Assembly (NCBI GenBank): GCA_016789445.1
Contig: JAEUQT010000002.1
Coordinates: 138,321-202,320 of the forward strand
DNA: 64,000 bases
Direction: 5' to 3'
Origin: a bacterium
Lineage (GTDB): Bacteria > Patescibacteriota > Minisyncoccia > Phycocordibacterales > UBA2100
In this document: positions 10,803-55,300 of the stretch, in pieces
Layout: every line of letters starts with the position of its first letter
How positions within the stretch are numbered: position 1 is the stretch's first letter
Program-made: the position numbers and the translations under genes
The notes under the pieces: generated by a model
Seen by the model: only the letters and a program-made list of their open reading frames with translations
What the model was told of the DNA's origin: nothing
The model's database searches: none

Positions 10803-11789
10803 ATGTCCGTCCGTGCGACGACGAAATGGTGGGTTGTATTGGGTATTTTTGTGTTCGGTTTCGGTGTGGGGTATCTCGTCCGCTACGCATTACCGCACGG
10901 CCACGCTGTTTCGCGCATCGGAGAAATCCGCGAGCGCAGCGGCGGCACGCTTACGAACCCGCTTCTCGAATGCACCGAATTACCGGAAAGCATCTCGGTA
11001 GGAGAACGACGTGATCTCGAGAGCAGGGTACAACGCATGATCGATGCGAAGAAGCAGGACGGCACGCTCACCGAAGCCGCTGTCTATTACCGCGATCTCA
11101 ATAACGGCCCGTGGTTCGGTATCCGCGAGGATGTGAAGTTTTCGCCTGCCTCGCTCCTTAAGGTGCCACTCGCCATGTGGTACTACTCGAAGGCAGACGA
11201 GGATCCCAGCATTCTCGAACAAGCCATCGAATTCAAAGGGCCGCGCGGCGTAAGCTACGTCAATTTCCCCCCGAGGATGCAACTTGAAGAAGGGAAGACG
11301 TATACCATCGAGGCGCTTATCCAGTACATGTTGCAGGAGAGCGATAATGACGCGGCGAACATCCTCGATGAATTCGGCGGCAGAGAGAAATCTGCCGATG
11401 TGTACCGTGATTTCGGCATCCAGCCATCCAACACGAGCGACGCATACGTCATCGACGTGCACACATACGCGTCATTCTTCCGTATCCTCTACAACGCCAC
11501 GTACATCGGCCGCGCACATTCCGAGCATCTTCTGGAAATCCTCAGTCGGTCGTCATTCACCCAGGGCCTACGCGCAGGTGTCCCGGAGAACGTCGTCGTG
11601 GCGCATAAATTCGGAGAAAAAGTGCTTGATGCGGAAACGAACACCTACCAGCTCCATGATTGCGGTATTGTCTATACAGGGAATACGCCGTATTCTCTTT
11701 GCGTCATGACGCAGGGGAAGGACATCGCCCAGCTTGCCAGCTTCATCAAAGACGTCTCCGCTCTCGTCTTTAGCGAGGTGACCCGATAA
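10803..11789 (+). CDS. beta-lactamase-fold (class A-like) serine hydrolase, membrane-anchored
   Basis: N-terminal TM helix. SxxK motif (SLLK), SDN motif (ESDNDAANIL), a KTG-like HKFGE, and HDCGIVY are present. Confidence 0.65.
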   Translation: MSVRATTKWWVVLGIFVFGFGVGYLVRYALPHGHAVSRIGEIRERSGGTLTNPLLECTELPESISVGERRDLESRVQRMIDAKKQDGTLTEAAVYYRDLNNGPWFGIREDVKFSPASLLKVPLAMWYYSKADEDPSILEQAIEFKGPRGVSYVNFPPRMQLEEGKTYTIEALIQYMLQESDNDAANILDEFGGREKSADVYRDFGIQPSNTSDAYVIDVHTYASFFRILYNATYIGRAHSEHLLEILSRSSFTQGLRAGVPENVVVAHKFGEKVLDAETNTYQLHDCGIVYTGNTPYSLCVMTQGKDIAQLASFIKDVSALVFSEVTR

Positions 11790-11792
11790 ACC

Positions 11793-12788
11793 ATGCGCTT
11801 TTTTACCAAGACTCCGGTCAGTGCCGTGCTAACCGCGAGTGCGCTTGTCGGCGTCGGCATCGCTATCGGATTCTGGGTTATTCCGCATGGTTCTCACGAG
11901 GCGAAACGTTTTTTCGCAGATGTACGAAATGCGGAGAATGAAGGACGTCTCACCAATCAGCTTCTGGAATGCACCGAGCTGCCAGAGGGGATTTCCATCG
12001 GTGGGCGCATAAATCTGGAACAGCAGATCCAGGAGAAGGTGGATGTGCTGAAGCGTGAGGGGAAACTGACCGAAGCTGCCGTCTACTATCGCGACCTCAA
12101 CAACGGCCCGTGGTTCGGCATCAACGAAGATGTTCCGTATTACCCGGCCTCACTCCTGAAAGTCCCGCTCGCCATAGCCTTCTATCGCCGTGATCAGGAG
12201 GGTCCCGGATTCCTCCAGACGAGAGCCGTGTTTGAAAGTACCGGCCAGGATTTCGAGGCGGGGCAAGCGTTCGGTTCGGCGAAGCGTTTGGAGGGCGGGG
12301 CGGAATATTCGCTCGAAGATTTGATTGCGATCATGCTGCAGGATTCGAGCAACGAAGCAGCGCTCCTCTTGACGCAGATAGCCGGAGAGGAGAATGTACT
12401 CGATGTGTATGAGGATATCGGCATCCCCGCACCGCAATTCGGCAAGGACTACCAGATCAATGTGCACACCTTCGGCTCATTCTTCCGCATCCTCTTCAAT
12501 GCCACCTATCTCGATCGCGCACATTCGGAACGGATCCTCTCTATCCTCACAAAATCCAGCTTCACGCAGGGAATCCAGGCAGGACTCCCCGAAGGCACGC
12601 TGGCTGCACACAAGTTCGGCACGCGCGAAGTCGGCGACGTTCGTCAGCTCCATGACTGCGGCATCGTCTATGCGCCCGGTAAGCCGTATATCCTCTGTGT
12701 CATGACGCAGGGAACGGACTTTGACATGCTCGCGGACTTCATCAAAGAAGTCTCTGGTACCATTTACTCGGCGGTTGCCACCCAGTGA
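11793..12788 (+). CDS. beta-lactamase-fold serine hydrolase, tandem paralogue
   Basis: Collinear with the previous gene: YYRDLNNGPWFGI..ASLLKVPLA, SSN replacing SDN, HKFGTRE, HDCGIVYAPG. N-terminal TM helix. Confidence 0.65.
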   Translation: MRFFTKTPVSAVLTASALVGVGIAIGFWVIPHGSHEAKRFFADVRNAENEGRLTNQLLECTELPEGISIGGRINLEQQIQEKVDVLKREGKLTEAAVYYRDLNNGPWFGINEDVPYYPASLLKVPLAIAFYRRDQEGPGFLQTRAVFESTGQDFEAGQAFGSAKRLEGGAEYSLEDLIAIMLQDSSNEAALLLTQIAGEENVLDVYEDIGIPAPQFGKDYQINVHTFGSFFRILFNATYLDRAHSERILSILTKSSFTQGIQAGLPEGTLAAHKFGTREVGDVRQLHDCGIVYAPGKPYILCVMTQGTDFDMLADFIKEVSGTIYSAVATQ

Positions 12789-31124: not shown

Positions 31125-31222
31125 GAAGGTGAGACGGGGGTGGGGCCCCGTCGCAAGGCCGGACCGGGCGTAGGCGAGGGAGGCGGGGTCGCGCAATTCG
31201 CCAGCAGGCGAATATGCGTGAC
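31125..31222 (+). repeat. conserved intergenic structured element, family 1, copy A
   Basis: GGTGAGACGGGGGTGGGGCCCCGTCGCAAGGCCGGACCGGGCGTAGGCGAGGGAGGCGGGGTCGCGCAA is followed by a bulged hairpin at 31192-31218 (loop AGCAG) and then TGAC. Near-identical blocks occur at 34496 and 48806, with compensatory stem changes. Confidence 0.7.
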
Positions 31223-31235
31223 GGTAGACCCTTCC

Positions 31236-34495: not shown

Positions 34496-34590
34496 GGTGA
34501 GACGGGGTTGGGGCCCCGTCGCAAGGTCGGACCGAGCGTAGGCGAGGGAGGCGGGGTCGCGCAACATCGCAGCAGCGATGTATGCGTGAC
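34496..34590 (+). repeat. conserved intergenic structured element, family 1, copy B
   Basis: Same ~65-nt core as copy A with 3 substitutions. The hairpin at 34560-34586 has a conserved AGCAG loop and a compensated stem (CATCGC/GCGATG versus TTCGCC/GGCGAA in copy A). A further perfect 10-bp hairpin follows at 34591-34613. Confidence 0.7.
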
Positions 34591-34805
34591 CGGGAAAACA
34601 TGCTGTTTTCCCGTGTCTGAGAGCAGGGTGCCGAGCGAAGCGCAGGCATCCGTTGAGAACCGAGGGTTCTCAAGGTATCCGGGTGGCGGCTCCCGTAACT
34701 TTGTTTCTAGAATCTGCGTCGGTCTCGTTTTTCATATATAAGACTACATCACACATCAATCAGGCCAAAAAACCGTTTGAATGCTATCCTAATCCCTAAG
34801 CCACC

Positions 34806-44293: not shown

Positions 44294-44578
44294 GTGAATC
44301 CCGTTAGAGATGACGGTAGTTGGTATACGTACGTGCTCCGTAGTCTAAGAGATGGAGAAACATACACCGGCTTCACCAACGATTTGCGGAAGCGCTTCAA
44401 GCAGCATAACGACGGGCTCACGTCTTCAACCAAGGGACGTCGTCCCTTTGAGCTGATATATTACGAAATGTGTAGAAACGAGAGTGACGCACGGTCGAGA
44501 GAATTATTTCTAAAATCTGGCATGGGTAAACGCTATTTGCGAAATCGCTTGAAGCGCTTCCTATCTCTAACGGGATGA
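44294..44578 (+). CDS. small GIY-YIG nuclease-family protein (YhbQ/UPF0213-like)
   Basis: WYTYVLRS..GETYTGFTNDLRKRFKQHN...G..R.FELIYYE. GTG start inside the left TIR. The TGA stop overlaps the sortase ATG (ATGA). Confidence 0.7.
   Translation: MNPVRDDGSWYTYVLRSLRDGETYTGFTNDLRKRFKQHNDGLTSSTKGRRPFELIYYEMCRNESDARSRELFLKSGMGKRYLRNRLKRFLSLTG
44298..44576 (+). mobile_element. TIR-bounded GIY-YIG mini-element (candidate autonomous copy)
   Basis: A perfect 14-bp inverted repeat, ATCCCGTTAGAGAT (44298-44311) and ATCTCTAACGGGAT (44563-44576), exactly brackets a 94-aa GIY-YIG ORF. Related TIR pairs without an ORF occur at 61114/61219 and 63872/63941. Confidence 0.55.
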
Positions 44579-45219
44579 AAACCGCACATTCCAAGCCTCC
44601 GATGAGTGTCTTTCTGGCGGCGACCGTCGTCATCTTCTTCCTCGCGCTCTCCGCAGCCGACTCCGTCGGCTTCGTTCCGTATTACATCGACGGCACACCG
44701 CCGCGACCGAAGGTTACGGTCGAAAGTCTTGCGGAAATCCCGCAGGAGGAAGTCGCTCTTCCCGAAGAAGAGGAAGTCGGTGTCGCGCCGACGCGCATCC
44801 GTATCCCGGCGATCGATCTCGATCTTCCGGTACTCAATCCGCAGACCCGCGACATCGCGGCGCTCGATGCGGTACTCAAAGACGGCCCTGCACGCTACAT
44901 GGATTCCGCCCTGCTTGGCGAGAAGGGCAATGTCTTGATCTTCGGTCATTCTTCGCATCTGCCGGTCGTACACAACCAGATGTACAAGGCGTTCAACCGT
45001 GTGCCGGACCTCAAAGAGGGCGACACCATCGAAGTCGAGGGTGGCGGAAAGGTCTACACGTACCGCGTCCTCGGCGTGAAGGGCGTCGATGCGGAAGAAG
45101 GCATCATCGATCTTTCCCGAGAGGGGAATCGCCTCACGATCGTCACCTGCGACACGCTCACCGCCAAGACCGCCCGCTTCGTCCTCGACGCCGAACTCAT
45201 CGGTTCCTACGATCTCTAA
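44575..45219 (+). CDS. sortase-family transpeptidase
   Basis: N-terminal TM helix. Catalytic His context LIFGHS, Cys in LTIVTCD (the TLxTC motif), and a downstream Arg (TARFVLDAEL). Confidence 0.75.
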   Translation: MKTAHSKPPMSVFLAATVVIFFLALSAADSVGFVPYYIDGTPPRPKVTVESLAEIPQEEVALPEEEEVGVAPTRIRIPAIDLDLPVLNPQTRDIAALDAVLKDGPARYMDSALLGEKGNVLIFGHSSHLPVVHNQMYKAFNRVPDLKEGDTIEVEGGGKVYTYRVLGVKGVDAEEGIIDLSREGNRLTIVTCDTLTAKTARFVLDAELIGSYDL

Positions 45220-45295
45220 CGTTCTTGACGCCTTCATAGGTGCGGAGCATAGTTGCGGCGGCTCAGTTCTCGGGCCTCAACGAAGGAGGAAATAC

Positions 45296-45730
45296 ATGCG
45301 TGTAAGCGCATCACTCATCCGATATCTCAGTCCGCTCATCCTCGGCGCGCTTCTGGGTCTCATGTTCTGGCTCGCGCCGGATATCACGCCGCAAAAGATG
45401 GGGGCTGAGACCCCAGACCAGGCGGTCGTCCTCATGGGCGGGTTCTTCGTCATCTTCTGGATCTATCTTCAGATCCAGGGATATCCGATCTCGCATGGCG
45501 ATATCGGGACGGCGAGCTCGCACACGATCGACAACATCATGTCGTTCATCCCGGCGCTGACGGCGCTCTTCGGCCTTGCGCTCACGATGTTCAATTTCTG
45601 GGAGCTTTCCCAGCTCAACATCGCGCTGGCTGTCATGACGCTCGGCATCGTCTGGATCGATTTGTGGATCTACGGCGGGTCGGCTTCGAAGATCAACCGG
45701 CTGACTGACGAGATCAAAGCGGAACGGTAG
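45296..45730 (+). CDS. hypothetical polytopic membrane protein
   Basis: Four predicted TM helices. SD AAGGAGGA 6 nt upstream. The track ORF start at 45089 overlaps the sortase gene. Confidence 0.5.
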   Translation: MRVSASLIRYLSPLILGALLGLMFWLAPDITPQKMGAETPDQAVVLMGGFFVIFWIYLQIQGYPISHGDIGTASSHTIDNIMSFIPALTALFGLALTMFNFWELSQLNIALAVMTLGIVWIDLWIYGGSASKINRLTDEIKAER

Positions 45731-45902
45731 GGGAATCGGATCTAAGAAAGAGGCGGGCAGCCATTGTCCGCCTCTTGACTTTTGGTCAAAATGTGATAGC
45801 ATATCTCCCAGAGGGTCCTGAATGCCGATTTGGGCGCTTAAACAGTCCCTAAATCGGCCTTCGGGACAATCCGAACTGGTCTTTAACTTAACCGGAGGGA
45901 GA

Positions 45903-46427
45903 ATGAGAAAACCCCCCGAAGAAATCGTCTATACGGAAGGAAACGGCTTTGAACCAATTCGGGACAATGTCGTTGTCTTCCCAAAACGACCGAAAGGAGA
46001 CGAAAGCATGAGTGATGATCATGGAAAAGGACATGGTCACGATCATGGCGGTCACGGAAAAAAGGAGGCAGGACTAATGCCAGACCTTAAAAAAGTTGGT
46101 CTCGGAGTATTAGCGGCGATTCTCGGCTTGTATGCAATCAGATTTATCATCATTCCGATGATAGGCGGTATTGCATGTGATCTGACGGGTAACGTCGGTT
46201 GCCAAGTAGCGGCGAAAATGAATGAGCAGCAAACTATGTCTGCGGATTCATCGGCCCCTTTCTCGGTAAATCGCGAAATCCGTCGTCGAGAGGGCGGTCC
46301 AGTAGGACCTGCCCGCCGTCAGCAAGGACGGCAAGGGCTGATGCCAAGCGTCGACTGTGCCGCGATGGGGGGTATCCGGACGACAAATCCGAATACCGGA
46401 ATGCCATCGTGCTTCGTTCCCAACTGA
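45903..46427 (+). CDS. His-rich membrane protein with conserved C-terminal Cys module
   Basis: HGKGHGHDHGGHGKK, then a TM helix, then C-terminal MPSVDCAAMGGIRTTNPNTGMPSCFVPN. This C-terminus is shared with the 46557 product. The start is uncertain (45822, 45903 or 46009). 45903 and 46009 both have an SD. Confidence 0.5.
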   Translation: MRKPPEEIVYTEGNGFEPIRDNVVVFPKRPKGDESMSDDHGKGHGHDHGGHGKKEAGLMPDLKKVGLGVLAAILGLYAIRFIIIPMIGGIACDLTGNVGCQVAAKMNEQQTMSADSSAPFSVNREIRRREGGPVGPARRQQGRQGLMPSVDCAAMGGIRTTNPNTGMPSCFVPN

Positions 46428-46430
46428 CTA

Positions 46431-46465
46431 TTCCGGAAGCGTTGCATAACGCATCGCTTCCGGAA
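46431..46465 (+). terminator. hairpin, possible terminator
   Basis: Perfect 11-bp stem TTCCGGAAGCG/CGCTTCCGGAA with a 13-nt loop. The downstream T-tract is weak. Confidence 0.35.
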
Positions 46466-46556
46466 ACTTCTTCTTACGAGTACCTGCCTCTGTTCGAGAT
46501 TTCGCACACGGACAGGTCTTCATAAGACCACTGATCATTCAAAAGGAGGACTTCCG

Positions 46557-46961
46557 ATGAGGAAGATTCTGATCGCTCTCGTCGCGTTCATGTCGCTGCC
46601 GGTCGCTCAGGCCACGGCAGAGTCCATTTACTATGGACGTCAGAGTCCGGATCAAATACGCGTTCGCGTAGGCAGTCCGGAGCACAGCGTGAGGGTAAGC
46701 GTGCCTTTCCCTCACATCAGCCACAACAACGGCTGCCGTGGACCTCGCTGCGGATATCCGCGGCGACATGTCCATGGTCCTGGTTGCGGTCACTCGATTC
46801 GTCGAGCGTCCTGCGGCCAAGGAGGAGGTTGTGCGCAAGCTCGTCCGATCGCGCGTCCGGTGCAAGGCTATATGCCGACCATCGACTGCGAGAAGGCGGG
46901 CGGCATCCGTACGGTCAATCCGAATACGGGTGCGCCGACATGTTTCGTGCCGAATCAGTGA
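46557..46961 (+). CDS. secreted His/Cys-rich protein with conserved C-terminal Cys module
   Basis: Signal peptide. Cys/His-rich middle (CRGPRCGYPRRHVHGPGCGH). C-terminal MPTIDCEKAGGIRTVNPNTGAPTCFVPNQ. Confidence 0.55.
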   Translation: MRKILIALVAFMSLPVAQATAESIYYGRQSPDQIRVRVGSPEHSVRVSVPFPHISHNNGCRGPRCGYPRRHVHGPGCGHSIRRASCGQGGGCAQARPIARPVQGYMPTIDCEKAGGIRTVNPNTGAPTCFVPNQ

Positions 46962-46967
46962 GCAAAA

Positions 46968-47008
46968 GGGCGGGTTCAGTCTCAAGACTGACCCGCCCTT
47001 ACTTTTTA
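46968..47008 (+). terminator. Rho-independent terminator
   Basis: GGGCGGGTTCAGTCT-CAAG-ACTGACCCGCCC followed by TTACTTTTTA. Confidence 0.6.
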
Positions 47009-47078
47009 GAGGTATTGACAAGCGATTAATAGTGTGATACACTATATCCAGTCAAGCTCATTGATTAGGAGAAAGCCA

Positions 47079-47345
47079 ATGAAGGCAATTTCTAAAATCC
47101 TCGCAGTTGCTCTGCTCGCAGCGTCCGCTTCTTCGGCCTCGGCCTTCGTCAAGCACGACCCTGGTGTCACGTATGAGGACATCAAGGCCTGCCTCGAGAA
47201 CATCGGTCTGGAAGAAGGAACTCATTTTCGCAAGAAGAAGGGTTCCGATGACACGATCGAATTGAATCGTGGCCAGGTCGCCGGCGACAGCTACGACTTT
47301 AAACAGGTCGATGGCTGCTGGAAGAAGCAGACGGTGTCCAAGTAG
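47079..47345 (+). CDS. small secreted protein (2 Cys)
   Basis: Signal peptide (MKAISKILAVALLAASASSASA). SD AGGAGAAAG upstream. The track ORF start at 47034 is in-frame upstream. Confidence 0.5.
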   Translation: MKAISKILAVALLAASASSASAFVKHDPGVTYEDIKACLENIGLEEGTHFRKKKGSDDTIELNRGQVAGDSYDFKQVDGCWKKQTVSK

Positions 47346-47362
47346 GACAAATAACGGGGTAA

Positions 47363-47396
47363 TGGGGCGGTCTCTCAACGAGAGCCGCCCCTTTTC
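47363..47396 (+). terminator. Rho-independent terminator
   Basis: GGGGCGGTCTC-TCAACGA-GAGCCGCCCC followed by TTTTCT. Confidence 0.6.
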
Positions 47397-47402
47397 TATG
47401 CT

Positions 47403-47431
47403 CTTGACTTTTTGACAAAGGGAGGTTATAA
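47403..47431 (+). promoter_or_regulatory. sigma70-like promoter TTGACT-17-TATAAT
   Basis: Near-consensus hexamers with 17-nt spacing. It drives the 47498 gene with a ~60-nt leader. Confidence 0.55.
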
Positions 47432-47497
47432 TGTTCCAAGCAATTAGATCTCCTTATTAACCGGCATTTATTGGCTTACTAAAAGAAAAAATAACTT

Positions 47498-48805
47498 ATG
47501 AACTCGACTTCAACGCGTTCGCAGATCGTTCTCGGTCTTCTCGTTGGTTTCGTTGTGTTCGCAGGTCCGTCTGCGGTCCAGGCTGCCGATCTTGGTGGCT
47601 GGGGCTGGAGCGATTACGGTTCCTACGACAGTTGGTCTGATTACGGCTCGTACGATACGTGGAGCGACTATGGTTCGTATGATACCTGGTCTGATTACGG
47701 TTCTTACGACACGTGGTCTGACTACGGTTCGTATGGCTCCGGCACGTACTACGACGACGGGTATTACTACGACGATGTAGCTGGTACGTACTATGACGAT
47801 GTCTATGGTACTTACTACGACGATTCGTACGGCACCTATTACGATGATTCGTACGGTTCATACTACGATGACTCGTATTACTACGGTGGTGGTTCCTACG
47901 ACTACGGTTGTGGTTCCTCGTGCGGCGGCTCGTGGTACACGCCTTCGTACTCGACTGGTTGCGGTTCGTGGTGCGGCACCGGCGGCGGACAGTATGTCAC
48001 CCCCCGCTTCACGGCTCCGAGCTCTTCGTACACGAACATCGTGACGAACAATGTCGACAACTCGCAGGACAACGACAACTACAACTACATCACGAACATC
48101 GACAACTCGATCCGTGACAGCTTCAACAACTACAATAGCGGCAACACCTCTATCGTAGTCACTGCTCCTCAGACGCCGGTTCACACGACTCCTGCTCCGT
48201 ACTGCACGATCACGCATGCACAGTACGGTGGCTATGGTTCGGGTGCGTATCTCTCGTGGACTTCCACGAACGCATCGAGCGCATACCTCTCGAACGTCGG
48301 TTCTGTCGCAGTCTCGGGTTCCCAGACCGTCTACGCGCATGGCTCGCAGACGTACACGCTCACGGTCTACGGTTACAACGGTCAGACGGCAACGTGCGCA
48401 ACCTCGGTCTACGGCCAGGTCTACGTTCCTCCGACCTATAACCCTCCGTACGTGTCCCTTACGCAGATCCCGTACACTGGTTTCGACTTCGGTCCTATCG
48501 GTAACGCGATGTACTGGGTCTCGCTTCTTGGATTCGCAGCAGCAGGTGCCTACCTCATGATCTACTATCGTGGTGGTGCGCTTGCCTTCGCAACCGCAAT
48601 GGTTCCGGCACGTAAGTTCGCTCCGGTCGTTGCTCCGAAGGCTCCGATCCTCGTTGAGCGTGAAGCACTTGCGCTCTCGCACGATGAAGTGAAGGTCCAG
48701 CCGATCGTTGCATCTCTTCGCAAGGCAGCCGGTACTCTCGATACGATGGCAATCGTTTCCTCGAAAGATGGTTCGATGCCGCGCATCGTGATCCAGCGTG
48801 CTTAA
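47498..48805 (+). CDS. secreted Tyr/Asp-rich tandem-repeat surface protein with C-terminal IPYTG + TM segment
   Basis: Signal peptide. Five 27-nt SDYGSYDTW repeats and YYDDSYG(T/S) repeats (47611-47900). Beta-rich domain shared with the 49032 product. LTQIPYTGFD, then a hydrophobic helix, then YYRGG, then an ~80-aa tail. Confidence 0.65.
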   Translation: MNSTSTRSQIVLGLLVGFVVFAGPSAVQAADLGGWGWSDYGSYDSWSDYGSYDTWSDYGSYDTWSDYGSYDTWSDYGSYGSGTYYDDGYYYDDVAGTYYDDVYGTYYDDSYGTYYDDSYGSYYDDSYYYGGGSYDYGCGSSCGGSWYTPSYSTGCGSWCGTGGGQYVTPRFTAPSSSYTNIVTNNVDNSQDNDNYNYITNIDNSIRDSFNNYNSGNTSIVVTAPQTPVHTTPAPYCTITHAQYGGYGSGAYLSWTSTNASSAYLSNVGSVAVSGSQTVYAHGSQTYTLTVYGYNGQTATCATSVYGQVYVPPTYNPPYVSLTQIPYTGFDFGPIGNAMYWVSLLGFAAAGAYLMIYYRGGALAFATAMVPARKFAPVVAPKAPILVEREALALSHDEVKVQPIVASLRKAAGTLDTMAIVSSKDGSMPRIVIQRA

Positions 48806-48893
48806 ACGGGGGTGGGCCCCGTTTAAGAGCCGGACTGAGCGAAGGCGAAGGAGGCGGGGTCGCGCAATTTGCCAGCAGGCAAATATGGGTGAC
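48806..48893 (+). repeat. conserved intergenic structured element, family 1, copy C
   Basis: GGGGGTGGGCCCCG...GGAGGCGGGGTCGCGCAA, then a hairpin at 48863-48889 (TTTGCC/GGCAAA, AGCAG loop), then TGAC. More diverged than copies A and B. Confidence 0.6.
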
Positions 48894-49031
48894 TAAGGAG
48901 AGTGCTAAGGAAGGACGGGCAAAGCTCCAAAAGTGAACCGCATGGCCCGTCGCGAATAGCGATGGGCCATGCTGGTAGAGGGGAGGGAAATGTACTATAA
49001 AGCTGATACGTTAACCGATTACTAAATCTAT

Positions 49032-49907
49032 ATGCAGAACGCAAAAAATTCTGTTTCCAAGCTCTTTGTGGGTCTCGCGCTTTTCAGTGTCGTTCTCTCC
49101 GGCGTGCCGGCAGTCGCCGCTGCAAGCCACTCGAACTACGATGAGGAGGCTTCGTGCTGGATCTCGGCATCTCCGAGCTCGGTCTACGAAGGCGGTTCGA
49201 CAACCCTCACGTGGGGATCGCGCAACGCGGATGACGCGTGGATCGATGATATCGGCGATGTAGGAACCCACGGTTCCCGCATTATTTACGGTATCGATGA
49301 GGACACGACGTTCAAGCTTACTGTGGAGAATGACGAGGGCACCGCGACCTGTGAGACGGATGTCGAGGTCCGTTCCTACAACCACCACTCCGGTTCGACG
49401 AAGGCTCCGGGCTGCACCATCTATCGTCAGGAGACGAATGGTTCTGCAGTCGTCCTCCGCTGGAATTCGACGGACGCATCGTCTGCGTACCTCTCGGGCG
49501 TTGGCTCGGTATCGACCTTCGGTCAGTACACGGTCTACCCGACGTATGACACGACCTACACGCTCACGGTCTACGGCAACGGAAAGTCCGAGAGCTGTGA
49601 GATCGAAATCGACCGCGGCTACAGCACGTACTATCCGCAGAACTACAATCACTACAACAACTACGGCAACCAGTACGGTTATAACTACAACTATCCGTAC
49701 ATCTCACTGACCCAGATCCCGTACACGGGTTTTGATCTCGGTGTCGTCGGCACTGCGGTGTACTTCCTCGCGCTCGCACTCTTCGCGATCGCAGGTGCGT
49801 ATCTTCTCGCGTACTACCAGGGTGGCGTCCTTCGCTTCTCGTTCGCACAGGAAGTGAAGCTTGCTGCTCGCAATCAGGTTCGCGCAATCCGTAACTTCTT
49901 CAATTAA
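49032..49907 (+). CDS. secreted surface protein, paralogue of 47498 product, C-terminal IPYTG + TM
   Basis: Signal peptide. The shared domain is ...ASSAYLSGVGSV...YTLTVYG.... The C-terminus is ISLTQIPYTGFDLG, then a hydrophobic helix, then YYQGG, then a basic tail. Confidence 0.65.
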   Translation: MQNAKNSVSKLFVGLALFSVVLSGVPAVAAASHSNYDEEASCWISASPSSVYEGGSTTLTWGSRNADDAWIDDIGDVGTHGSRIIYGIDEDTTFKLTVENDEGTATCETDVEVRSYNHHSGSTKAPGCTIYRQETNGSAVVLRWNSTDASSAYLSGVGSVSTFGQYTVYPTYDTTYTLTVYGNGKSESCEIEIDRGYSTYYPQNYNHYNNYGNQYGYNYNYPYISLTQIPYTGFDLGVVGTAVYFLALALFAIAGAYLLAYYQGGVLRFSFAQEVKLAARNQVRAIRNFFN

Positions 49908-49954: not shown

Positions 49955-51724
49955 TTAGGCGCGGTCTTTGATTTCTTCGAGAAGGGAGGATTTGAATTCC
50001 TCAAACGGCTGTGCACCGATCTTTCCTTTATCGCGGCTCTCCACGGCGACGGTTCCCGCGTCGACTTCCGCATCGCCCATGACGAGTACGTAGGGGACTT
50101 TCTCGGTCTTCGCGTTGCGGATCTTCTTGCCGAGCGATTCGTTCGCCGCGTCGACTTCGACGCGCACGCCTGCCTCGCGCAATTCAGCAGAGATCTTCTC
50201 CGCGTATTCGACATGCTTCTCAGAGATAGGAAGGACTTTCACCTGAACGGGTGAAAGCCAGGTAGGGAAGGCGCCGCCGAAATGCTCGATCATCACGCCC
50301 ATAAAGCGTTCAAGCGATCCAGAGATCGCTCGATGGATAACAACAGGACGCTCTTTTTCACCTTTATCATTGATGAATGAGAGATCAAATCTCTCCGGGA
50401 GGTTGAAGTCGCATTGTATGGTTGCCAACTGCCACTCACGACCGATTGCATCTTTAAACATAAAATCCAATTTCGGACCATAGAAGGCAGCCTCTCCCTC
50501 CACACGAGTGTAGGGAAGATTATTCTTTTTTGCTGCATTCTCTAATGCTTCCTCGGCTCTGTTCCAGATATCATCGCTGCCGAGATATTGGCCTTCTGGG
50601 CCCCGAACGGAGAAGCGCACCCAATATCCTTCAATCATGCGCATGGTGGAGTAGAAATCGCGGATGATACCGACGATCGTGGAGACCTCTTCGTCTATCT
50701 GCGATATGCGGCAAAAAAGATGACCGTCATCTTGAGTGATCGCGCGTACGCGAGTCAGGCCCGCCAATTGACCAGTCTTCTCATCGCGATATACGGTCGC
50801 TGGTTCAAAGTAACGCACAGGCATATCGCGGTAGGAGAACTGATTATCAGCAAAAATCTGCATGTGATGCGGGCAGTTCATGGGCTTCAGGAAGAATTTC
50901 TCATCCTTACCGTTTACTCTAAACAACTCATCTCCGAATTTCGCCGCATGTCCTGAAGTCACATACAGATCTTCTTTTGCGAGATGGGGTGTCCAGACAC
51001 GTGAATAGCCCTTCTTTGCGTGAAGCTCCCACAGATATTCCTCCAGTTCGCGACGGATAATGGCACCGTTTGGCATGAGGAGGGGGAGACCGGAGCCGAC
51101 AAGGGGAGAAAGCGTGAAAATCTTGAGGGCGGGACCGAGTTTCTTGTGGTCGCGTTTCTCAGCCTCGGCTTGCTGAGCGAGATATGCATCAAGCTCTTCC
51201 TTGGTGTCGAAAGCTAGACCGTAGATGCGGGTGAGCATCGGATTATTCTCGCTGCCGCGCCAATAGGCGCCTGCAATCCTTTCAAGCTTGAAGGAATCAG
51301 CGTCGATATCTTCTGCAGGATTATCGGCGTGTCCGCCGCGACACAAATCAGTGAATCCGCCGCAGGAATACAACGTTATCGGTTCGCCGCGGGCTTTGAT
51401 CTCCTTTATCAGTTCCGCTTTGTACGGATTGGTACCGTTCGGTCCCGAGAAATGACCGTACGCTTCGTCAGCCGCGACTGTTTTGTGCGAGAAGGAGGTC
51501 CACTTCTTCAGATTCTCCTTCATTCGGTCCTCGATTTCCTGCAGGTCCTGGCTCGACGGCTTCCGGTCTCCACCGAAATCGATGTCGTAATAGAACCCAT
51601 TATCGATCGCAGGTCCTATCGCCAAAAGCGGCTGCGCACCGTCTTTGCCATATATTTCAAGCACTGCCTGTGCGAGAAGGTGAGCAAGGGTATGCCGAAT
51701 ATGTTCAATGTTCTTGAGCGACAT
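49955..51724 (-). CDS. thrS: threonine--tRNA ligase (lacks N-terminal TGS domain)
   Basis: The second N-terminal domain begins at IRHTLAHLLAQAV..GPAIDNGFYYD. Class II core (FRVNGKDEKFFLKPMNCPHH). C-terminal anticodon-binding domain. The track ORF extends to 52144, but that extension has no similarity and overlaps a + strand ORF with an SD, so ATG 51724 is the preferred start. Confidence 0.75.
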   Translation of the reverse strand: MSLKNIEHIRHTLAHLLAQAVLEIYGKDGAQPLLAIGPAIDNGFYYDIDFGGDRKPSSQDLQEIEDRMKENLKKWTSFSHKTVAADEAYGHFSGPNGTNPYKAELIKEIKARGEPITLYSCGGFTDLCRGGHADNPAEDIDADSFKLERIAGAYWRGSENNPMLTRIYGLAFDTKEELDAYLAQQAEAEKRDHKKLGPALKIFTLSPLVGSGLPLLMPNGAIIRRELEEYLWELHAKKGYSRVWTPHLAKEDLYVTSGHAAKFGDELFRVNGKDEKFFLKPMNCPHHMQIFADNQFSYRDMPVRYFEPATVYRDEKTGQLAGLTRVRAITQDDGHLFCRISQIDEEVSTIVGIIRDFYSTMRMIEGYWVRFSVRGPEGQYLGSDDIWNRAEEALENAAKKNNLPYTRVEGEAAFYGPKLDFMFKDAIGREWQLATIQCDFNLPERFDLSFINDKGEKERPVVIHRAISGSLERFMGVMIEHFGGAFPTWLSPVQVKVLPISEKHVEYAEKISAELREAGVRVEVDAANESLGKKIRNAKTEKVPYVLVMGDAEVDAGTVAVESRDKGKIGAQPFEEFKSSLLEEIKDRA

Positions 51725-51853
51725 TTCACGAATAGTACAGTTATGTTGGCTTTGAGCAAAGCTACAACAGGGAATTGACAAATAAACATATTTGTCACAG
51801 AGTAATTTTAGGAGGCGAATTCCTCGCTTCTGGAAGGTAAAGGAAGAAAGTGC

Positions 51854-52285
51854 ATGAGTTCTTTTCAACAGGTCCGCGGAGCGGATTTTAAGCCGGTCGT
51901 GAACGATGCTGCGCTGCAGTATCACAACGACAGCGTCGTTGCTCGCCTCGTTGAGCATGACGGCCTCACTCCTGATGAGGCAAGGGTTCTTTTTAAGGAC
52001 ACCTTGAAATTTCTGGCACTCACCGATAGTGGCGTGAAGTTGGCCCCGCCGGCAAAGATCGATCTCGGGTGGCACAACTTCATCCTCCACACCCGCGACT
52101 ATGCTGATTTCTGTCAGCAATGTTTCGGCCACTTCATCCATCATGAGCCCGGCAGCGGACTCACGTATACCGGCCCCAAGCTGGACGTTGAAGGCACTGT
52201 CGCTTTCGCAAAGAAGGCATACGGTGAGCTATCGTCCAACTGGGACAACACGCGCGGCTTGACCTGCGGCTCGAACGGCTGCTAA
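51854..52285 (+). CDS. hypothetical protein
   Basis: 143-aa ORF. SD AAAGGAAG 8 nt upstream. Terminator-like hairpin downstream. No motif. Confidence 0.45.
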   Translation: MSSFQQVRGADFKPVVNDAALQYHNDSVVARLVEHDGLTPDEARVLFKDTLKFLALTDSGVKLAPPAKIDLGWHNFILHTRDYADFCQQCFGHFIHHEPGSGLTYTGPKLDVEGTVAFAKKAYGELSSNWDNTRGLTCGSNGC

Positions 52286-52304
52286 ACGCCCGTTGAGTAC
52301 TTAT

Positions 52305-52336
52305 AAACAGCCATCGCTCTGCGGTGGCTGTTTTCT
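52305..52336. terminator. bidirectional hairpin terminator between convergent genes
   Basis: AAACAGCCATCGC-TCTG-CGGTGGCTGTTTT. Flanked by A- and T-runs on both strands. Confidence 0.5.
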
Positions 52337-55300
52337 ATAGCGCCTTCGCTTTCTCGACGACGAAACTCGCTTCGCCGTTGCGGTCGGAGAATTTTCCTTT
52401 GACCGCGATGCACTTTCCAGGGACGAACACGGTGGGGTATTCGGCGAGCGTTTTCGGGAAGACGACGATCTCAGTAGAGCCGACATAGTCCGATAATTTG
52501 CCGAAGAGCATCTTCTCGCCCTTTTTGGTGAGGATCTGATTGGTGGTCTCCAGGAATCCGCCGACGACAGCTTCGAGACCGCGCGGATAGGATTCTTTGA
52601 ATTGCTTGATATTCATCTTCTGCTTCTCAAGGACCGCGCGATGCTTATCCAAGGGATGCCCGGAGACATAAAATCCGAGCAGTTCTTTCTCCCAGCCGAG
52701 CTTTTCATCTTGCGTCGCCGGGCGTTCGGTAGGGAGCTTAAGCTCGGCTTGCCGAGATACGTCTGCGGCTCCAAAAAGGGAAGTGAGGCCCTGCGGTGCG
52801 CTTTGGAGCTCTTTGCGGTACTCCAAGAGCTTCTCTATGTGGGTCAGCAAGGTGTAGCGCTCGCCAAGGTCGTCCAACGAACCTGACATGATCAATGCTT
52901 CAAGAGATTTCTTATTGAGATTCTTGTCCCCTACGCGCGACAAGAAGTCCGCGATCGAGAAAAACTTCCCTCCTCGTTCCCGTTCCGCGATAATCGCATC
53001 CGCGATGCCTTCGCCGAAGTTCTTGACGCTATAGAGGCCGAAGCGGATGGTTGCCTCGTCGATCACCGTGAATGTCCCACGGCTCTCGTTGACCGAGGGT
53101 GGCAGGATCTGGATGTTCATGCGCTTACACTCGTTCACGACTTCCGCGATCTTCTCGACGTCTCCCGCATCCGACGTAAGCACCGCCGCCATGTAGTCCA
53201 CCGGATAGTTCGCTTTCATGTACGCGGTCTTGTACGCAAGGTTGCCGTACGATGCCGCGTGCGCTTTGTTGAAGCCGTACGCCGCGAAGGTCTCGATCTG
53301 CTCCCAGAGCTTCTGGACCACCTCCGGCTTCATGCCGCGCTCCAAGCAGCCCTTCTGGAACTTGTCCTTCTGGGCGGCCATTTCTTCGGGAATCTTCTTC
53401 CCCATCGCTTTTCGGAATTTGTCGGCCTCGAGCCAGCTGTAGCCGGCGAGCTGGATCGCGATCTGGAGGACGTCGTCCTGGTACGTGATGACGCCGTACG
53501 AGTTCTCAAGGATCGGCTTCATGCGCGGGTCGAGATACACGACCTTGCGTGGATCGCGCTTGCGCTCGATGTACTGCGGGATGAAGTTCATCGGGCCCGG
53601 ACGATACAGGGCCACCATAGCGTTGATGTCGTGGATCACGCTCGGCTTCAGTTCGACGAGGTACTGCGTCATGCCGGTACCTGAGAGCTGGAAGACGCCG
53701 AGCGTCTCTCCGCGCGAGAGCATCTCATACGTCTTCGTGTCGTCGAGCGGGACGCGATCGAAATCGATATCGACGCCCAGACGTGTCTTCACGCGATCAT
53801 GCGCGTCGGCCAGAGTCGAAAGGTTGGTGAGTCCGAGGAAGTCGAACTTGAGAAGGCCTGCGTCTTCGACGGCGTGCATATCGTACTGCGTGATGATCTT
53901 GCCGCCCTTAGGATCGAGTTGGACGGGGCAGAAATCAGTCACCAGCGTCGGCGCGATGACGACGCCTGCGGCGTGGACACCGACGTGGCGCGCGTTCCCT
54001 TCCACTTTCATTGCCATGTCGAGGATCTCGCGGGCGTCCGGGTCTTTCTTGTAGGCTTCTTTCAATTCCGGCACCTCGTCGAGTGATCCTTGGATAGTGA
54101 CCGTGAATCCTTGTTTACCGAAGGGGATCATCTTCGCGATACGATCGCCGGTGCCGTATGAGTGGCCGAGTGCGCGGGAGACGTCGCGTACCGCGGCGCG
54201 TGCGAGCATGGTCCCGAAGGTACCGATCTGCGCAACATGGTCGTCCCCATACTTTGAGCGGGCATACGCGATCATCTCATCGCGTCGGTTATCGGCGTAG
54301 TCCATATCGATATCCGGCGCTGAAGGGCGCTCCGGATTCAAAAAGCGTTCGAAGGGAAGTCCGTACTCGATCGGATTCACGTTCGTAATTCCTGAAAGGA
54401 AGGTCACCAAGGAGCCAGCGACCGAGCCGCGGATGTTCGTGAGGATGCCGTTCTCACGGGCGTGGCGAAGGAGATCGGAGACCACGAGGAAGTACGGCGA
54501 GTAGCCTTTCTTCGCGATGACGGAGAGCTCGTAGTCCGTTCTCTCGCGCAGCTCCGGAGTCTCTTCAAGGTCTCGCATCTTGAAGCCTTTGTAGGCGAGC
54601 TCCCGCAAGGCCTCGTCGTAGCCCTTTTCGACTTTGATGTCAGGGAAGACCCACTTCCCTAGTTCCAATTCGATAGTGCAGCTATCCACGATCTTCCCGA
54701 TGTTCTCAAGTGCCTCGGGGAAATCCGCGAAATACTTCCCTGCCTGTTCCTTGGAAATGAATGAGAAGTCCGACGAATTAACACCGAACTCACGGTCCAA
54801 CGTGCCGCCGGTGCGGATTTTGTTGACCATCTCACGGGCGAGGGAATCCTCCTTCTTCAAATAGTAGGTGTCGTGCGCGGCGACGAGCGGTAAGGAATGT
54901 TTCTTCGCAAGGGAGATTATTCTCTCCTGATTCTCCATGTGTCCCTCGATCTCCGGATGGTGGGTGATCTCGATGTAGAGGTTCTCGCCGTACGTCTTCT
55001 GGTACCACTGCATCGCCTCATCGGCTTTGTCGGTCATGTCATCTTTCAGGTGTTTTGCATGCTCTCCGCTGAACGAAGGAAGGATCGCGATGATGCCTTC
55101 CTTGTGTGCTTCGAGAAGCTCGCGATCCACGCGCGGGCGGTAATAGAACCCCTCGAGGAAGGATTTCGAGACGAGGACGATGAGGTTGCGATAGCCATGG
55201 ATATCCTTCGCGAGAAGCACTAAGCGGAAGTGGCGGTCATCGACGCGATGTTCCTTATCGTGGCGTGTGCGAGGGGCTACGAAGAAGTCGACACCGATGA

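What the first reader, a model, noticed from the sequence alone, without database searches (positions are those of the whole stretch)
46300..46961. Shared 30-aa C-terminal two-Cys module on two otherwise unrelated small His/Cys-rich proteins
MP(S/T)(V/I)DC..(M/A)GGIRT(T/V)NPNTG(M/A)P(S/T)CFVPN ends both the 45903 product and the 46557 product. The 45903 product is His-rich (HGKGHGHDHGGHGKK) with a TM helix. The 46557 product has a signal peptide and a CxxxC/HxH-rich middle. This looks like a modular C-terminal sorting or binding tag, or a metal-binding disulfide loop. The locus is visibly more AT-rich than its surroundings (about 45900-47500), which may indicate horizontal acquisition.
Basis: seen in the sequence. 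Interest (0 to 1): 0.5.

Follow-up and report, generated by a model that had tools for sequence, protein, structure and literature searches.

The report
Shared two-cysteine tail on surface proteins
Two neighbouring small exported proteins of an uncultivated bacterium end in the same ~30-residue two-cysteine hairpin, an undescribed, exchangeable C-terminal domain that sits beside a sortase surface-protein locus in every related genome examined and is most likely a docking tag, though its function is untested.

Summary
ORF A (45903-46427) and ORF B (46557-46961) share only their last 31 residues (22/31 identical, E 8e-15). An exhaustive profile search of 1.84 billion protein representatives found about 27 further clusters. 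All are small (75-217 aa), all have an N-terminal signal peptide or single membrane anchor, and most carry the module at the extreme C-terminus. The consensus is W-x-P-[TS]-[VI]-[DN]-C-x3-GG-x-RT-x-NP-x-TG-x-PS-C-FVP. No Pfam, NCBIfam, PDB-sequence or fold match exists. AlphaFold gives a confident beta-hairpin with NPxTG as the turn, on an unmodelled tether.

The module is 68-100% conserved where the ORF A body is 14-36% identical. Synonymous changes dominate, so selection acts on the protein and recent gene conversion is excluded. Every related locus shows the same order: sortase, variable membrane protein, 1-3 module proteins, small secreted protein, Tyr/Asp-repeat proteins with an IPYTG sorting signal. 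In two related loci both genes carry a different, non-homologous two-Cys tail. Modules within a genome resemble each other more than modules between genomes (p=0.012).

Best reading (confidence 0.4): an extracytoplasmic disulfide-stapled docking tag that directs different proteins to one genome-specific envelope partner. The metal-binding reading is unsupported. The GC-based horizontal-transfer argument is weak.

The parts
45903..46427 (+). ORF A, 174 aa (GenBank MBL8158441.1, hypothetical). Layout: short variable cytoplasmic N-terminus, one TM helix, a C-x7-C loop, a linker, then the C-terminal module.
   Evidence: RBS GGAGG at 45894-45898.
46095..46175 (+). Single hydrophobic (TM anchor) segment of ORF A, residues 65-91. 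K/R residues lie on its N-terminal side, so the C-terminus is predicted to be outside the cell.
   Evidence: hydropathy 2.36; 3 K/R upstream, 0 downstream.
46332..46424 (+). Module copy A: QGLMPSVDCAAMGGIRTTNPNTGMPSCFVPN (Cys152, Cys170).
46431..46465 (+). Strong hairpin directly after the ORF A stop, followed by a U/C-rich run. Possible partial terminator between A and B.
   Evidence: the 136-nt spacer folds at -46.3 kcal/mol, z -4.5.
46557..46961 (+). ORF B, 134 aa. Layout: signal-peptide-like N-terminus, conserved N-domain (ESIYYGRQSPDQ.RVRVGSPE), Cys/His-rich middle, module. Apparently not annotated in the GenBank record.
   Evidence: RBS AGGAGG at 46544-46549.
46713..46832 (+). Cys/His-rich middle of ORF B, residues 53-92. 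The H-x-H-x2-G-C-x-H and C-G motifs are invariant in the 5 ORF B homologues aligned. It is not part of the shared module.
46863..46958 (+). Module copy B: QGYMPTIDCEKAGGIRTVNPNTGAPTCFVPNQ (Cys111, Cys129).
46966..47007 (+). Intrinsic-terminator-like hairpin plus U-run after ORF B.
   Evidence: -27.5 kcal/mol, z -4.9.
44575..45219 (+). Sortase gene. It lies upstream of the module genes in every related locus with enough upstream sequence.
45296..45730 (+). 144-aa multi-pass membrane protein between the sortase and ORF A. A counterpart is present in related loci, in two allelic types that do not track module type.
47079..47345 (+). 88-aa secreted two-Cys protein downstream of ORF B. It is variable between strains and does not co-vary with module type.
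47498..48805 (+). 435-aa Tyr/Asp-repeat protein (WSDYGSYD and TYYDD repeats) with SLTQIPYTG, a hydrophobic segment and RGG. It is the presumed sortase substrate and is syntenic with module proteins in all lineages examined.
49032..49907 (+). 291-aa protein with a second SLTQIPYTG plus hydrophobic segment.

Best explanation
The shared 28-31 residues are a previously undescribed small extracytoplasmic C-terminal domain. It is a beta-hairpin with NPxTG as the turn, preceded by a short helix, and is probably stapled by a disulfide between its two invariant Cys. It hangs on a flexible, poorly conserved linker at the end of proteins that are either Sec-secreted (ORF B type) or held in the membrane by one N-terminal helix (ORF A type).

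I propose that it works as a non-covalent docking tag. It would bring different cargo or anchor proteins to one common envelope partner within the sortase-dependent surface structure encoded by the same locus. The most obvious candidates for that partner are the Tyr/Asp-repeat IPYTG proteins or a wall polymer. Because all tags in a cell must fit the same partner, the tags of the 1-3 paralogues in a genome evolve in concert. They can also be replaced together by a different two-Cys tail.

Shown here: the existence, boundaries, conservation, extracytoplasmic placement, modularity and synteny of the domain. Inferred: the disulfide, the binding function and the identity of the partner.
For: (1) The family is real. 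A profile search of 1.84e9 representatives gave 32 hits at E<=1e-3. About 27 of these are genuine beyond the query set. They are 75-217 aa long, and in 24 of 28 the module ends 3-7 residues before the stop.

(2) Every member has exactly one N-terminal hydrophobic segment, either a signal peptide or lipobox or a TM anchor. The module Cys always lie after it.

(3) C, N, P, T, C and P are invariant, and P, GG, R, P and V are at least 90% conserved, across 29 sequences. Among ORF A-type proteins the module is 68-100% identical where the body is 14-36%. Synonymous changes outnumber non-synonymous ones. Examples are 12 vs 6 for window against L021 and 15 vs 4 for window against L016.

(4) The module is modular. 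It sits on at least five unrelated scaffolds. Between the window and L021, nucleotide homology restarts at 46323, about 10 bp before the first module codon, after an unalignable ORF A body. The L011 ORF A body resembles P0012 by eye up to the junction and then carries a different tail.

(5) AlphaFold predicts a helix at residues 13-16 and a hairpin at 19-22/29-32. pLDDT is 71 for the module alone. In full-length ORF B it is 85-90 for the module, while the signal peptide scores about 79 and the rest stays below 65.

(6) Gene order is conserved: sortase, membrane protein, 1-3 module proteins, small secreted protein, IPYTG repeat protein. This holds in at least 9 related loci, several of which align with the window at the nucleotide level only in short patches or not at all.

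(7) The tags evolve in concert without recent conversion. L011 and L012 carry an alternative two-Cys tail on both genes, 24-26/29 aa identical with 15-16 of those residues in different codons. No locus is mixed. Within-genome modules are more alike than between-genome modules, 21.1 vs 19.3 of 28 (label-permutation p=0.012). All three paralogues in L023 share GGTRTINPNTGKPSCFVP.
Against: No partner has been identified, and there is no experimental or structural evidence of binding. The neighbouring genes that could be compared do not co-vary with module type. These are the 144-aa membrane protein, the 88-aa secreted protein and the sortase. The link to the Tyr/Asp repeats rests on synteny plus a single alternative-type locus, L011, whose repeats differ.

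The A module and the ORF B gene lie within about 650 bp of each other, so simple linkage explains part of the coarse co-variation. L011 and L012 may represent a single event. The permutation test ignores phylogeny, and an earlier test on fewer genomes was not significant (12 of 120 permutations). The pair in L022 is no more alike than average, at 18/28. Some loci have only one module protein (L019, L020). The disulfide is inferred and was not shown.
Confidence: 0.4

Rival explanations
1. The module is a non-canonical sortase signal. The invariant NPxTG resembles SrtB-type motifs (NPQTN, NPKTG). The adjacent sortase would cleave it and ligate the protein to the wall or to the IPYTG fibre proteins.
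For: N, P and T are invariant and G is present in 26 of 29 sequences. A sortase gene lies 1-2 genes upstream in the window, L012, L021, L022, L023, L020, L008 and L010. The locus's evident substrates use a related PxTG motif, SLTQIPYTG. That SrtB recognises NPxTN or NPxTG is from my own knowledge.
Against: Only 7-9 hydrophilic residues follow the motif in most members. There is no hydrophobic segment and no positively charged tail. The motif is enclosed by the two invariant Cys and is predicted to be the turn of a hairpin. The alternative tail in L011 and L012 has no PxTG although the sortase is retained. An unrelated repeat protein, P0035, uses DPNTG in the same strand-turn-strand context, which suggests a structural turn motif.
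Confidence: 0.12
2. The modules of ORF A and ORF B bind each other. The hairpins would pair, or exchange disulfides, so that the secreted ORF B is tethered to the membrane-anchored ORF A.
For: An anchored protein next to a secreted protein, both carrying the module, recurs in the window, L008, L017, L021, L022 and L023. Tail types are matched within genomes.
Against: L019 and L020 have a single module protein, and L023 has three. In L010 both module proteins are of the secreted or lipoprotein type. Homotypic pairing was not tested.
Confidence: 0.12
3. The module has no shared partner. It is an old duplicated structural cap, a disulfide hairpin that stabilises or protects the C-termini of exported proteins. 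Its similarity persists only through stringent folding constraints and linkage.
For: Small disulfide hairpins tolerate little change. Other unrelated C-terminal two-Cys loops occur on neighbouring exported proteins in relatives: the L010 154-aa, L017 110-aa and L008 271-aa proteins. Linkage can explain the co-inheritance of the A tail and ORF B.
Against: Surface-exposed turn and loop residues are invariant (NPxTG, GG-x-R), not only the Cys and the hydrophobic core. Concerted within-genome similarity persists despite many synonymous differences among shared residues. The module is strictly confined to one syntenic locus.
Confidence: 0.15
4. The C-terminal ~30 residues are released by proteolysis as a disulfide-cyclised signalling or antimicrobial peptide. 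The main and alternative tails would then be 'pherotypes'.
For: A conserved small-residue junction ([QRKH]G) and Arg/Pro-rich linkers precede the module. Closely related strains carry polymorphic tail types. C-terminal peptide signals cut from Sec-exported precursors are known in Firmicutes (Phr type; own knowledge).
Against: No transporter, processing protease, receptor kinase or modification enzyme was detected in the locus. Many carriers are large, or membrane-anchored with conserved domains of their own. None of the locus genes that could be compared co-varies with tail type.
Confidence: 0.08
5. The module is a metal-binding loop, one of the first reader's alternatives.
For: The module has two invariant Cys. 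His-rich or Cys-rich regions occur elsewhere in both window proteins.
Against: The module has no conserved His, Asp, Glu or Met ligands, and two thiols 17 residues apart in an exported protein are more likely to form a disulfide. The His tract of ORF A is absent from its relatives. The His/Cys motifs of ORF B lie outside the module.
Confidence: 0.04

Closest known systems
Non-covalent surface-anchoring or docking modules of Gram-positive exported proteins (SLH, LysM, GW, choline-binding repeats; dockerin-cohesin logic)
   Same: A short terminal module is shared by otherwise unrelated exported proteins of one organism. It is more conserved than the cargo, attached by a flexible linker and exchangeable between scaffolds. 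All copies in a genome are expected to match one ligand.
   Different: There is no sequence or fold relationship. The module is much smaller, at about 28 aa. It occurs as a single copy at the extreme C-terminus, depends on two Cys, and has no known ligand. The resemblance is functional analogy by inference only.
Sortase cell-wall sorting signals, especially SrtB-type NPxT[NG]
   Same: The module contains an NPxTG pentapeptide near the C-terminus of exported proteins encoded next to a sortase gene.
   Different: There is no hydrophobic segment or charged tail after the motif. The motif lies inside a two-Cys loop predicted to be a hairpin turn. The alternative tail lacks it.
Pfam PF08793, 2-cysteine adaptor domain (2C_adapt) of large DNA viruses
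   Same: Both are domains of about 35 residues with two Cys and an NPxTGR-like turn. It was the only Pfam model to give any signal.
   Different: The score is 12 bits against a 22-bit cut-off. The match covers 9-10 residues, appears in 2 of 29 members and has E 0.18-0.27. 2C_adapt domains are intracellular viral adaptors (Pfam description, own knowledge). The module is not a member of this family.
C-terminal disulfide loop (D-region) of type IV pilins
   Same: Both are C-terminal, extracytoplasmic, two-Cys loops involved in surface interactions.
   Different: The module proteins have no class III (prepilin) signal or N-terminal pilin helix. The module is far shorter and the proteins are unrelated to pilins.

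Membership tests
Sortase cell-wall sorting signal (LPXTG / NPXTG type) | PxTG-type pentapeptide near the C-terminus | tested here: met
   NPNTG is at ORF A residues 162-166 and ORF B residues 121-125. N, P and T are invariant and G is present in 26 of 29 sequences.
Sortase cell-wall sorting signal (LPXTG / NPXTG type) | Hydrophobic membrane-spanning segment after the motif | tested here: not met
   Only 8-9 residues (xP[ST]CFVPN) follow the motif. In 24 of 28 members the protein ends 3-7 residues after Cys2.
Sortase cell-wall sorting signal (LPXTG / NPXTG type) | Positively charged tail at the extreme C-terminus | tested here: not met
   The C-termini read ...CFVPN...CFVPD or ...CFVP.
Sortase cell-wall sorting signal (LPXTG / NPXTG type) | Cleavage between T and G by a sortase | not testable with these tools
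   This needs an enzyme assay or mass spectrometry. The alternative tail in L011 and L012 lacks any PxTG although the sortase is retained.
Pfam PF08793 2C_adapt | Score at or above the gathering cut-off (22 bits) over the 35-position model | tested here: not met
   The best score is 12.5 bits, E 0.18, covering profile positions 9-18 only, in 2 of 29 members.
Curated C-terminal sorting domains (PEP-CTERM, GlyGly-CTERM, MYXO-CTERM, PGF-CTERM and similar; NCBIfam models) | Match to an NCBIfam or Pfam model, and a C-terminal TM helix | tested here: not met
   ORF A and ORF B gave no NCBIfam hit at E<=0.1. Pfam gave only a 13-bit DUF5665 match for ORF A (cut-off 27) and nothing for ORF B. The only hydrophobic segment is N-terminal.
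Known wall-binding modules (SLH, LysM, GW/SH3b, CW_binding) | Sequence match to the family profile | tested here: not met
   Full-length members and module fragments gave no Pfam hit to any of these families.
RiPP / exported peptide precursor | Neighbouring maturation enzyme, peptidase-transporter or receptor | tested here: not met
   Pfam annotations of the neighbours across loci show only sortase, CARDB and housekeeping genes. All other neighbours have no domain hit. Undetected novel enzymes cannot be excluded.
Solved structures (any) | Significant sequence or fold match | tested here: not met
   The PDB profile search gave a best E of 0.48. Foldseek against the PDB gave a best E of 8. A 36-residue model gives fold search little power.

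The most novel reading that the evidence does not exclude
The NPxTG hairpin is a new kind of sortase handle. It would be a disulfide-closed, TM-less C-terminal element that the locus's sortase recognises in order to ligate membrane-anchored and secreted accessory proteins onto the IPYTG Tyr/Asp-repeat fibre. The alternative two-Cys tail would then represent a lineage that switched to non-covalent attachment.
Probability: 0.1. Interest if true: 0.7.

Novelty: new variant of a known kind. Interest (0 to 1): 0.42.

Why it matters
This defines a compact, sharply bounded and strongly constrained domain family that no database describes. It marks a conserved sortase-linked surface locus in a poorly known lineage of uncultivated bacteria. 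If the tag is a docking element, it gives a handle on how these organisms assemble their surface, showing which proteins are recruited together. Matched alternative tails in related strains would then be an example of surface components switching specificity together. A 28-residue self-folding tag with a specific partner could also be of practical use. One of the two window genes, ORF B, appears to be missing from the public annotation.

Tried and rejected
- The word-indexed homologue search with the module fragments found nothing. Full-length queries worked.
- Two metagenome-contig scans, one with the module and one with full ORF B, gave no confirmed locus. A viral-contig scan also gave none, so there is no evidence for a phage origin.
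- The genome-contig scan gave one locus only, L016. The family is rare among species representatives.
- Profile-profile comparison of the main and alternative tails showed no homology. I therefore dropped the idea that the alternative tail is a diverged copy of the main one.
- Recent gene conversion between ORF A and ORF B is rejected because of the many synonymous differences among shared residues.
- I rejected ORF A's His-rich tract as a family feature, because it is absent in relatives.
- Three hits of the exhaustive search were judged spurious or merely motif-like: P0011, P0038 and P0035.
- A first small permutation test for fine-scale co-variation was not significant. The larger set gave p=0.012.
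- Two lines (ORF B body and ORF B module, window against L021) are invalid. An indel shifted my naive codon pairing, and I do not use those lines.
- The taxonomy of the source could not be established. The GenBank label is only 'bacterium'. A Patescibacteria origin is a guess and was not tested.

Full report
**Observation**

The + strand carries ORF A and ORF B. ORF A runs from 45903 to 46427 and encodes 174 aa. An upstream in-frame ATG at 45822 would give 201 aa, but GGAGG at 45894-45898 and the GenBank product MBL8158441.1 favour 45903. ORF B runs from 46557 to 46961 and encodes 134 aa, with AGGAGG 7 nt upstream.

BLASTP of the two products finds one significant segment, the last 31 residues, with 22/31 identical and E 8e-15. 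Nothing else is significant. A six-frame motif scan finds only these two copies in the window. The two module-coding stretches are 63/96 identical at the DNA level, and 13 of the 22 shared residues use different codons. The identity is therefore maintained at the protein level.

A strong hairpin follows each gene.

**Composition**

Region 45900-47500 has GC 0.523 against a window mean of 0.565 (z -2.2). The dip is due to AT-rich spacers and the ORF A body. ORF B is 0.605, and the lowest-GC stretch of the window lies elsewhere. Composition alone is therefore weak evidence for horizontal acquisition.

**Is it a family?**

Pfam and NCBIfam give no hit above cut-off for either protein. ORF B has four homologues in the 5.8-billion-sequence collection and ORF A has two.

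A 4-sequence module profile was searched exhaustively against 1.84 billion representatives. It returned 32 proteins at E<=1e-3, of which 14 were at E<=1e-10. Three are repeat artefacts or motif look-alikes (P0011, P0038, P0035). The rest are small proteins of 75-217 aa.

In 24 of 28 of these, the protein ends 3-7 residues after the second Cys. All have exactly one hydrophobic segment N-terminal to the module, and the module Cys follow it. This segment is either a signal peptide or lipobox at the N-terminus or a single anchor helix.

The 29-sequence alignment gives the consensus W-x-P-[TS]-[VI]-[DN]-C-x3-G-G-x-R-T-x-N-P-x-T-G-x-P-S-C-F-V-P. C, N, P, T, C and P are invariant.

No PDB sequence matches (best E 0.48) and no fold matches. 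The only Pfam signal is a 12-bit, 9-10-residue overlap with the NPxTGR turn of PF08793 (2C_adapt), well below the 22-bit cut-off.

**Structure**

AlphaFold with the family alignment predicts a short helix after Cys1 and a beta-hairpin whose turn is NPNTG. Mean pLDDT is 71 for the module alone. In full-length ORF B the module reaches pLDDT 85-90. The signal peptide scores about 79 and the rest stays below 65, much of it below 50. This is consistent with a folded tag on a flexible or unmodelled tether.

An unrelated 1000-aa repeat protein uses GGV-x-Q-LV-x-G-x-DPNTG-x-x-TTFV in each repeat. That suggests the motif is a generic strand-turn-strand device.

**Modularity and selection**

The module sits on at least five unrelated scaffolds:
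- the ORF A type, with a TM anchor and a C-x7-10-C loop;
- the ORF B type;
- a lipoprotein-like 142-aa protein (L010);
- Pro/Val/Cys-rich secreted proteins (P0016, P0018, P0020 and others);
- further small anchored proteins.

Among ORF A-type proteins the body is 14-36% identical and the module 68-100%. In the module, synonymous codon changes exceed non-synonymous ones. Examples are 12 vs 6 for window against L021, 15 vs 4 against L016, and 15 vs 3 against L017-B (valid lines only).

Between the window and L021 the backbone is about 82% identical at the nucleotide level. Alignment is lost over the ORF A body (45884-46323) and resumes at 46323, about 10 bp before the first module codon.

**Genomic context**

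The window comes from a 326-kb contig of a MAG labelled only 'bacterium'. Housekeeping genes surround the locus: PheRS, GyrB, ThrRS, DnaE and GAPDH.

The local gene order is as follows:
- GIY-YIG protein, 44294-44578;
- sortase, 44575-45219;
- 144-aa multi-pass membrane protein;
- ORF A;
- ORF B;
- 88-aa secreted two-Cys protein;
- 435-aa Tyr/Asp-repeat protein ending in SLTQIPYTG, a hydrophobic segment and RGG;
- 291-aa protein with the same sorting-type signal.

The same order, with 1, 2 or 3 module proteins, is seen in L008, L010, L012, L016, L019, L020, L021, L022 and L023. Several of these loci align with the window only in short patches at the DNA level, and L019 not at all. The module is thus a component of a conserved sortase-linked surface-protein locus.

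**Co-variation**

In L011 and L012 both ORF A and ORF B end in a different two-Cys tail, [QH]GVD[RS]SPPPCAG[EQ]LRR[DE]EA-x-GAWVCRVYH. It shows no detectable homology to the main module. The A and B copies of this tail are 24-26/29 identical, yet 15-16 of those residues use different codons. The matched pair is therefore old and not a recent copy.

No locus mixes the two tail types: 6 distinct lineages are main/main(/main) and 2 loci are alt/alt.

Across 13 main-type modules from 6 genomes, modules within a genome are more alike than modules between genomes, at 21.1 vs 19.3 of 28 positions (label-permutation p=0.012). For example, all three L023 copies share GGTRTINPNTGKPSCFVP, and both L021 copies have R-GG and NPSTG.

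Several caveats apply. The test ignores phylogeny. A smaller set was not significant. The L022 pair is not unusually similar. The A tail and the ORF B gene are also physically contiguous, so linkage contributes to the coarse co-variation.

**Interpretation**

The best-supported reading is an extracytoplasmic, probably disulfide-stapled hairpin that serves as a common docking tag. It would target anchored and secreted proteins to one partner in the envelope structure built by this locus (confidence 0.4).

The partner is not identified. The sortase, the membrane protein and the small secreted protein do not co-vary with tail type. The Tyr/Asp-repeat protein is the most attractive candidate. That rests on synteny and on one alternative-type locus whose repeats differ (L011), which is thin evidence.

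The rival readings are:
- a non-canonical sortase handle (0.12), argued against by the absence of a TM segment and charged tail, by the motif being a predicted hairpin turn inside the Cys loop, and by the PxTG-less alternative tail;
- pairing between the A and B modules (0.12);
- a purely structural cap (0.15);
- a released peptide (0.08);
- a metal site (0.04).

**Verdict**

This is a real, previously undescribed small C-terminal domain family with clear modular behaviour and a conserved genomic setting. Its function is inferred only. The metal-binding and AT-richness arguments are not.

Noticed in passing
window 46557-46961: ORF B appears to be unannotated in the public record. The GenBank proteins and locus tags run consecutively: MBL8158441.1/JNK62_02835 (ORF A), then MBL8158442.1/JNK62_02840 (the 88-aa protein). 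The exact ORF B sequence is held only from Logan assemblies. It has a strong RBS, a terminator and conserved homologues, so it is very likely a real gene.
   Followed up: partly
window 48802-48896, 31130-31224, 34498-34592: A dispersed element of about 95 nt occurs in three copies at 81-89% identity, each just downstream of a gene or tRNA. It has a predicted three-hairpin structure, and 8 of 32 pairs show compensatory double changes. One copy was searched against Rfam and gave no match. It could be a structured intergenic repeat or a small RNA.
   Followed up: partly
window 47498-48805 and 49032-49907: Two adjacent proteins carry SLTQIPYTG, a hydrophobic segment and [RQ]GG, which looks like a sortase sorting signal. 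In the 435-aa protein this is followed by an unusual extra tail of about 85 residues. The signal is conserved in L007, L016, L020, L021 and L023. The N-terminal parts are Tyr/Asp-rich short repeats (WSDYGSYD, TYYDD).
   Followed up: partly
window 45270-46323: This is a recombination-prone segment. The ORF A body cannot be aligned at the nucleotide level between genomes whose flanks are 82-85% identical. The upstream multi-pass membrane protein exists in two allelic types, window/L012 and L021/L010/L022.
   Followed up: partly
L010 683-1147; L017 5-337; L008 774-1589: Other exported proteins in related loci end in different short two-Cys loops...MRCHVVDPYKGEIRQRSCDE...WCVGRDMYGNEVSRTPGPCPYGD and ...CIDQPRGTVYWCGFGKTGYCECR. 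C-terminal Cys loops may therefore be a general theme of this lineage's secretome.
   Followed up: no
window 49955-52144 (-): ThrRS is 729 aa in the window, with a long N-terminal extension. The gene called at this position is 408 aa in the 97.5%-identical strain L001, 413 aa in L021 and 581 aa in L023. Window 50278-52341 has no counterpart in L001.
   Followed up: no
window 81-10778, 10803-12788: There is a giant 3565-aa ORF, followed by two tandem paralogous genes of the beta-lactamase family (PF13354).
   Followed up: no
L023 1984-4493: In L023 the locus carries an insertion of three extra genes (662, 84 and 57 aa, no Pfam hits) between the sortase region and the module proteins.
   Followed up: no
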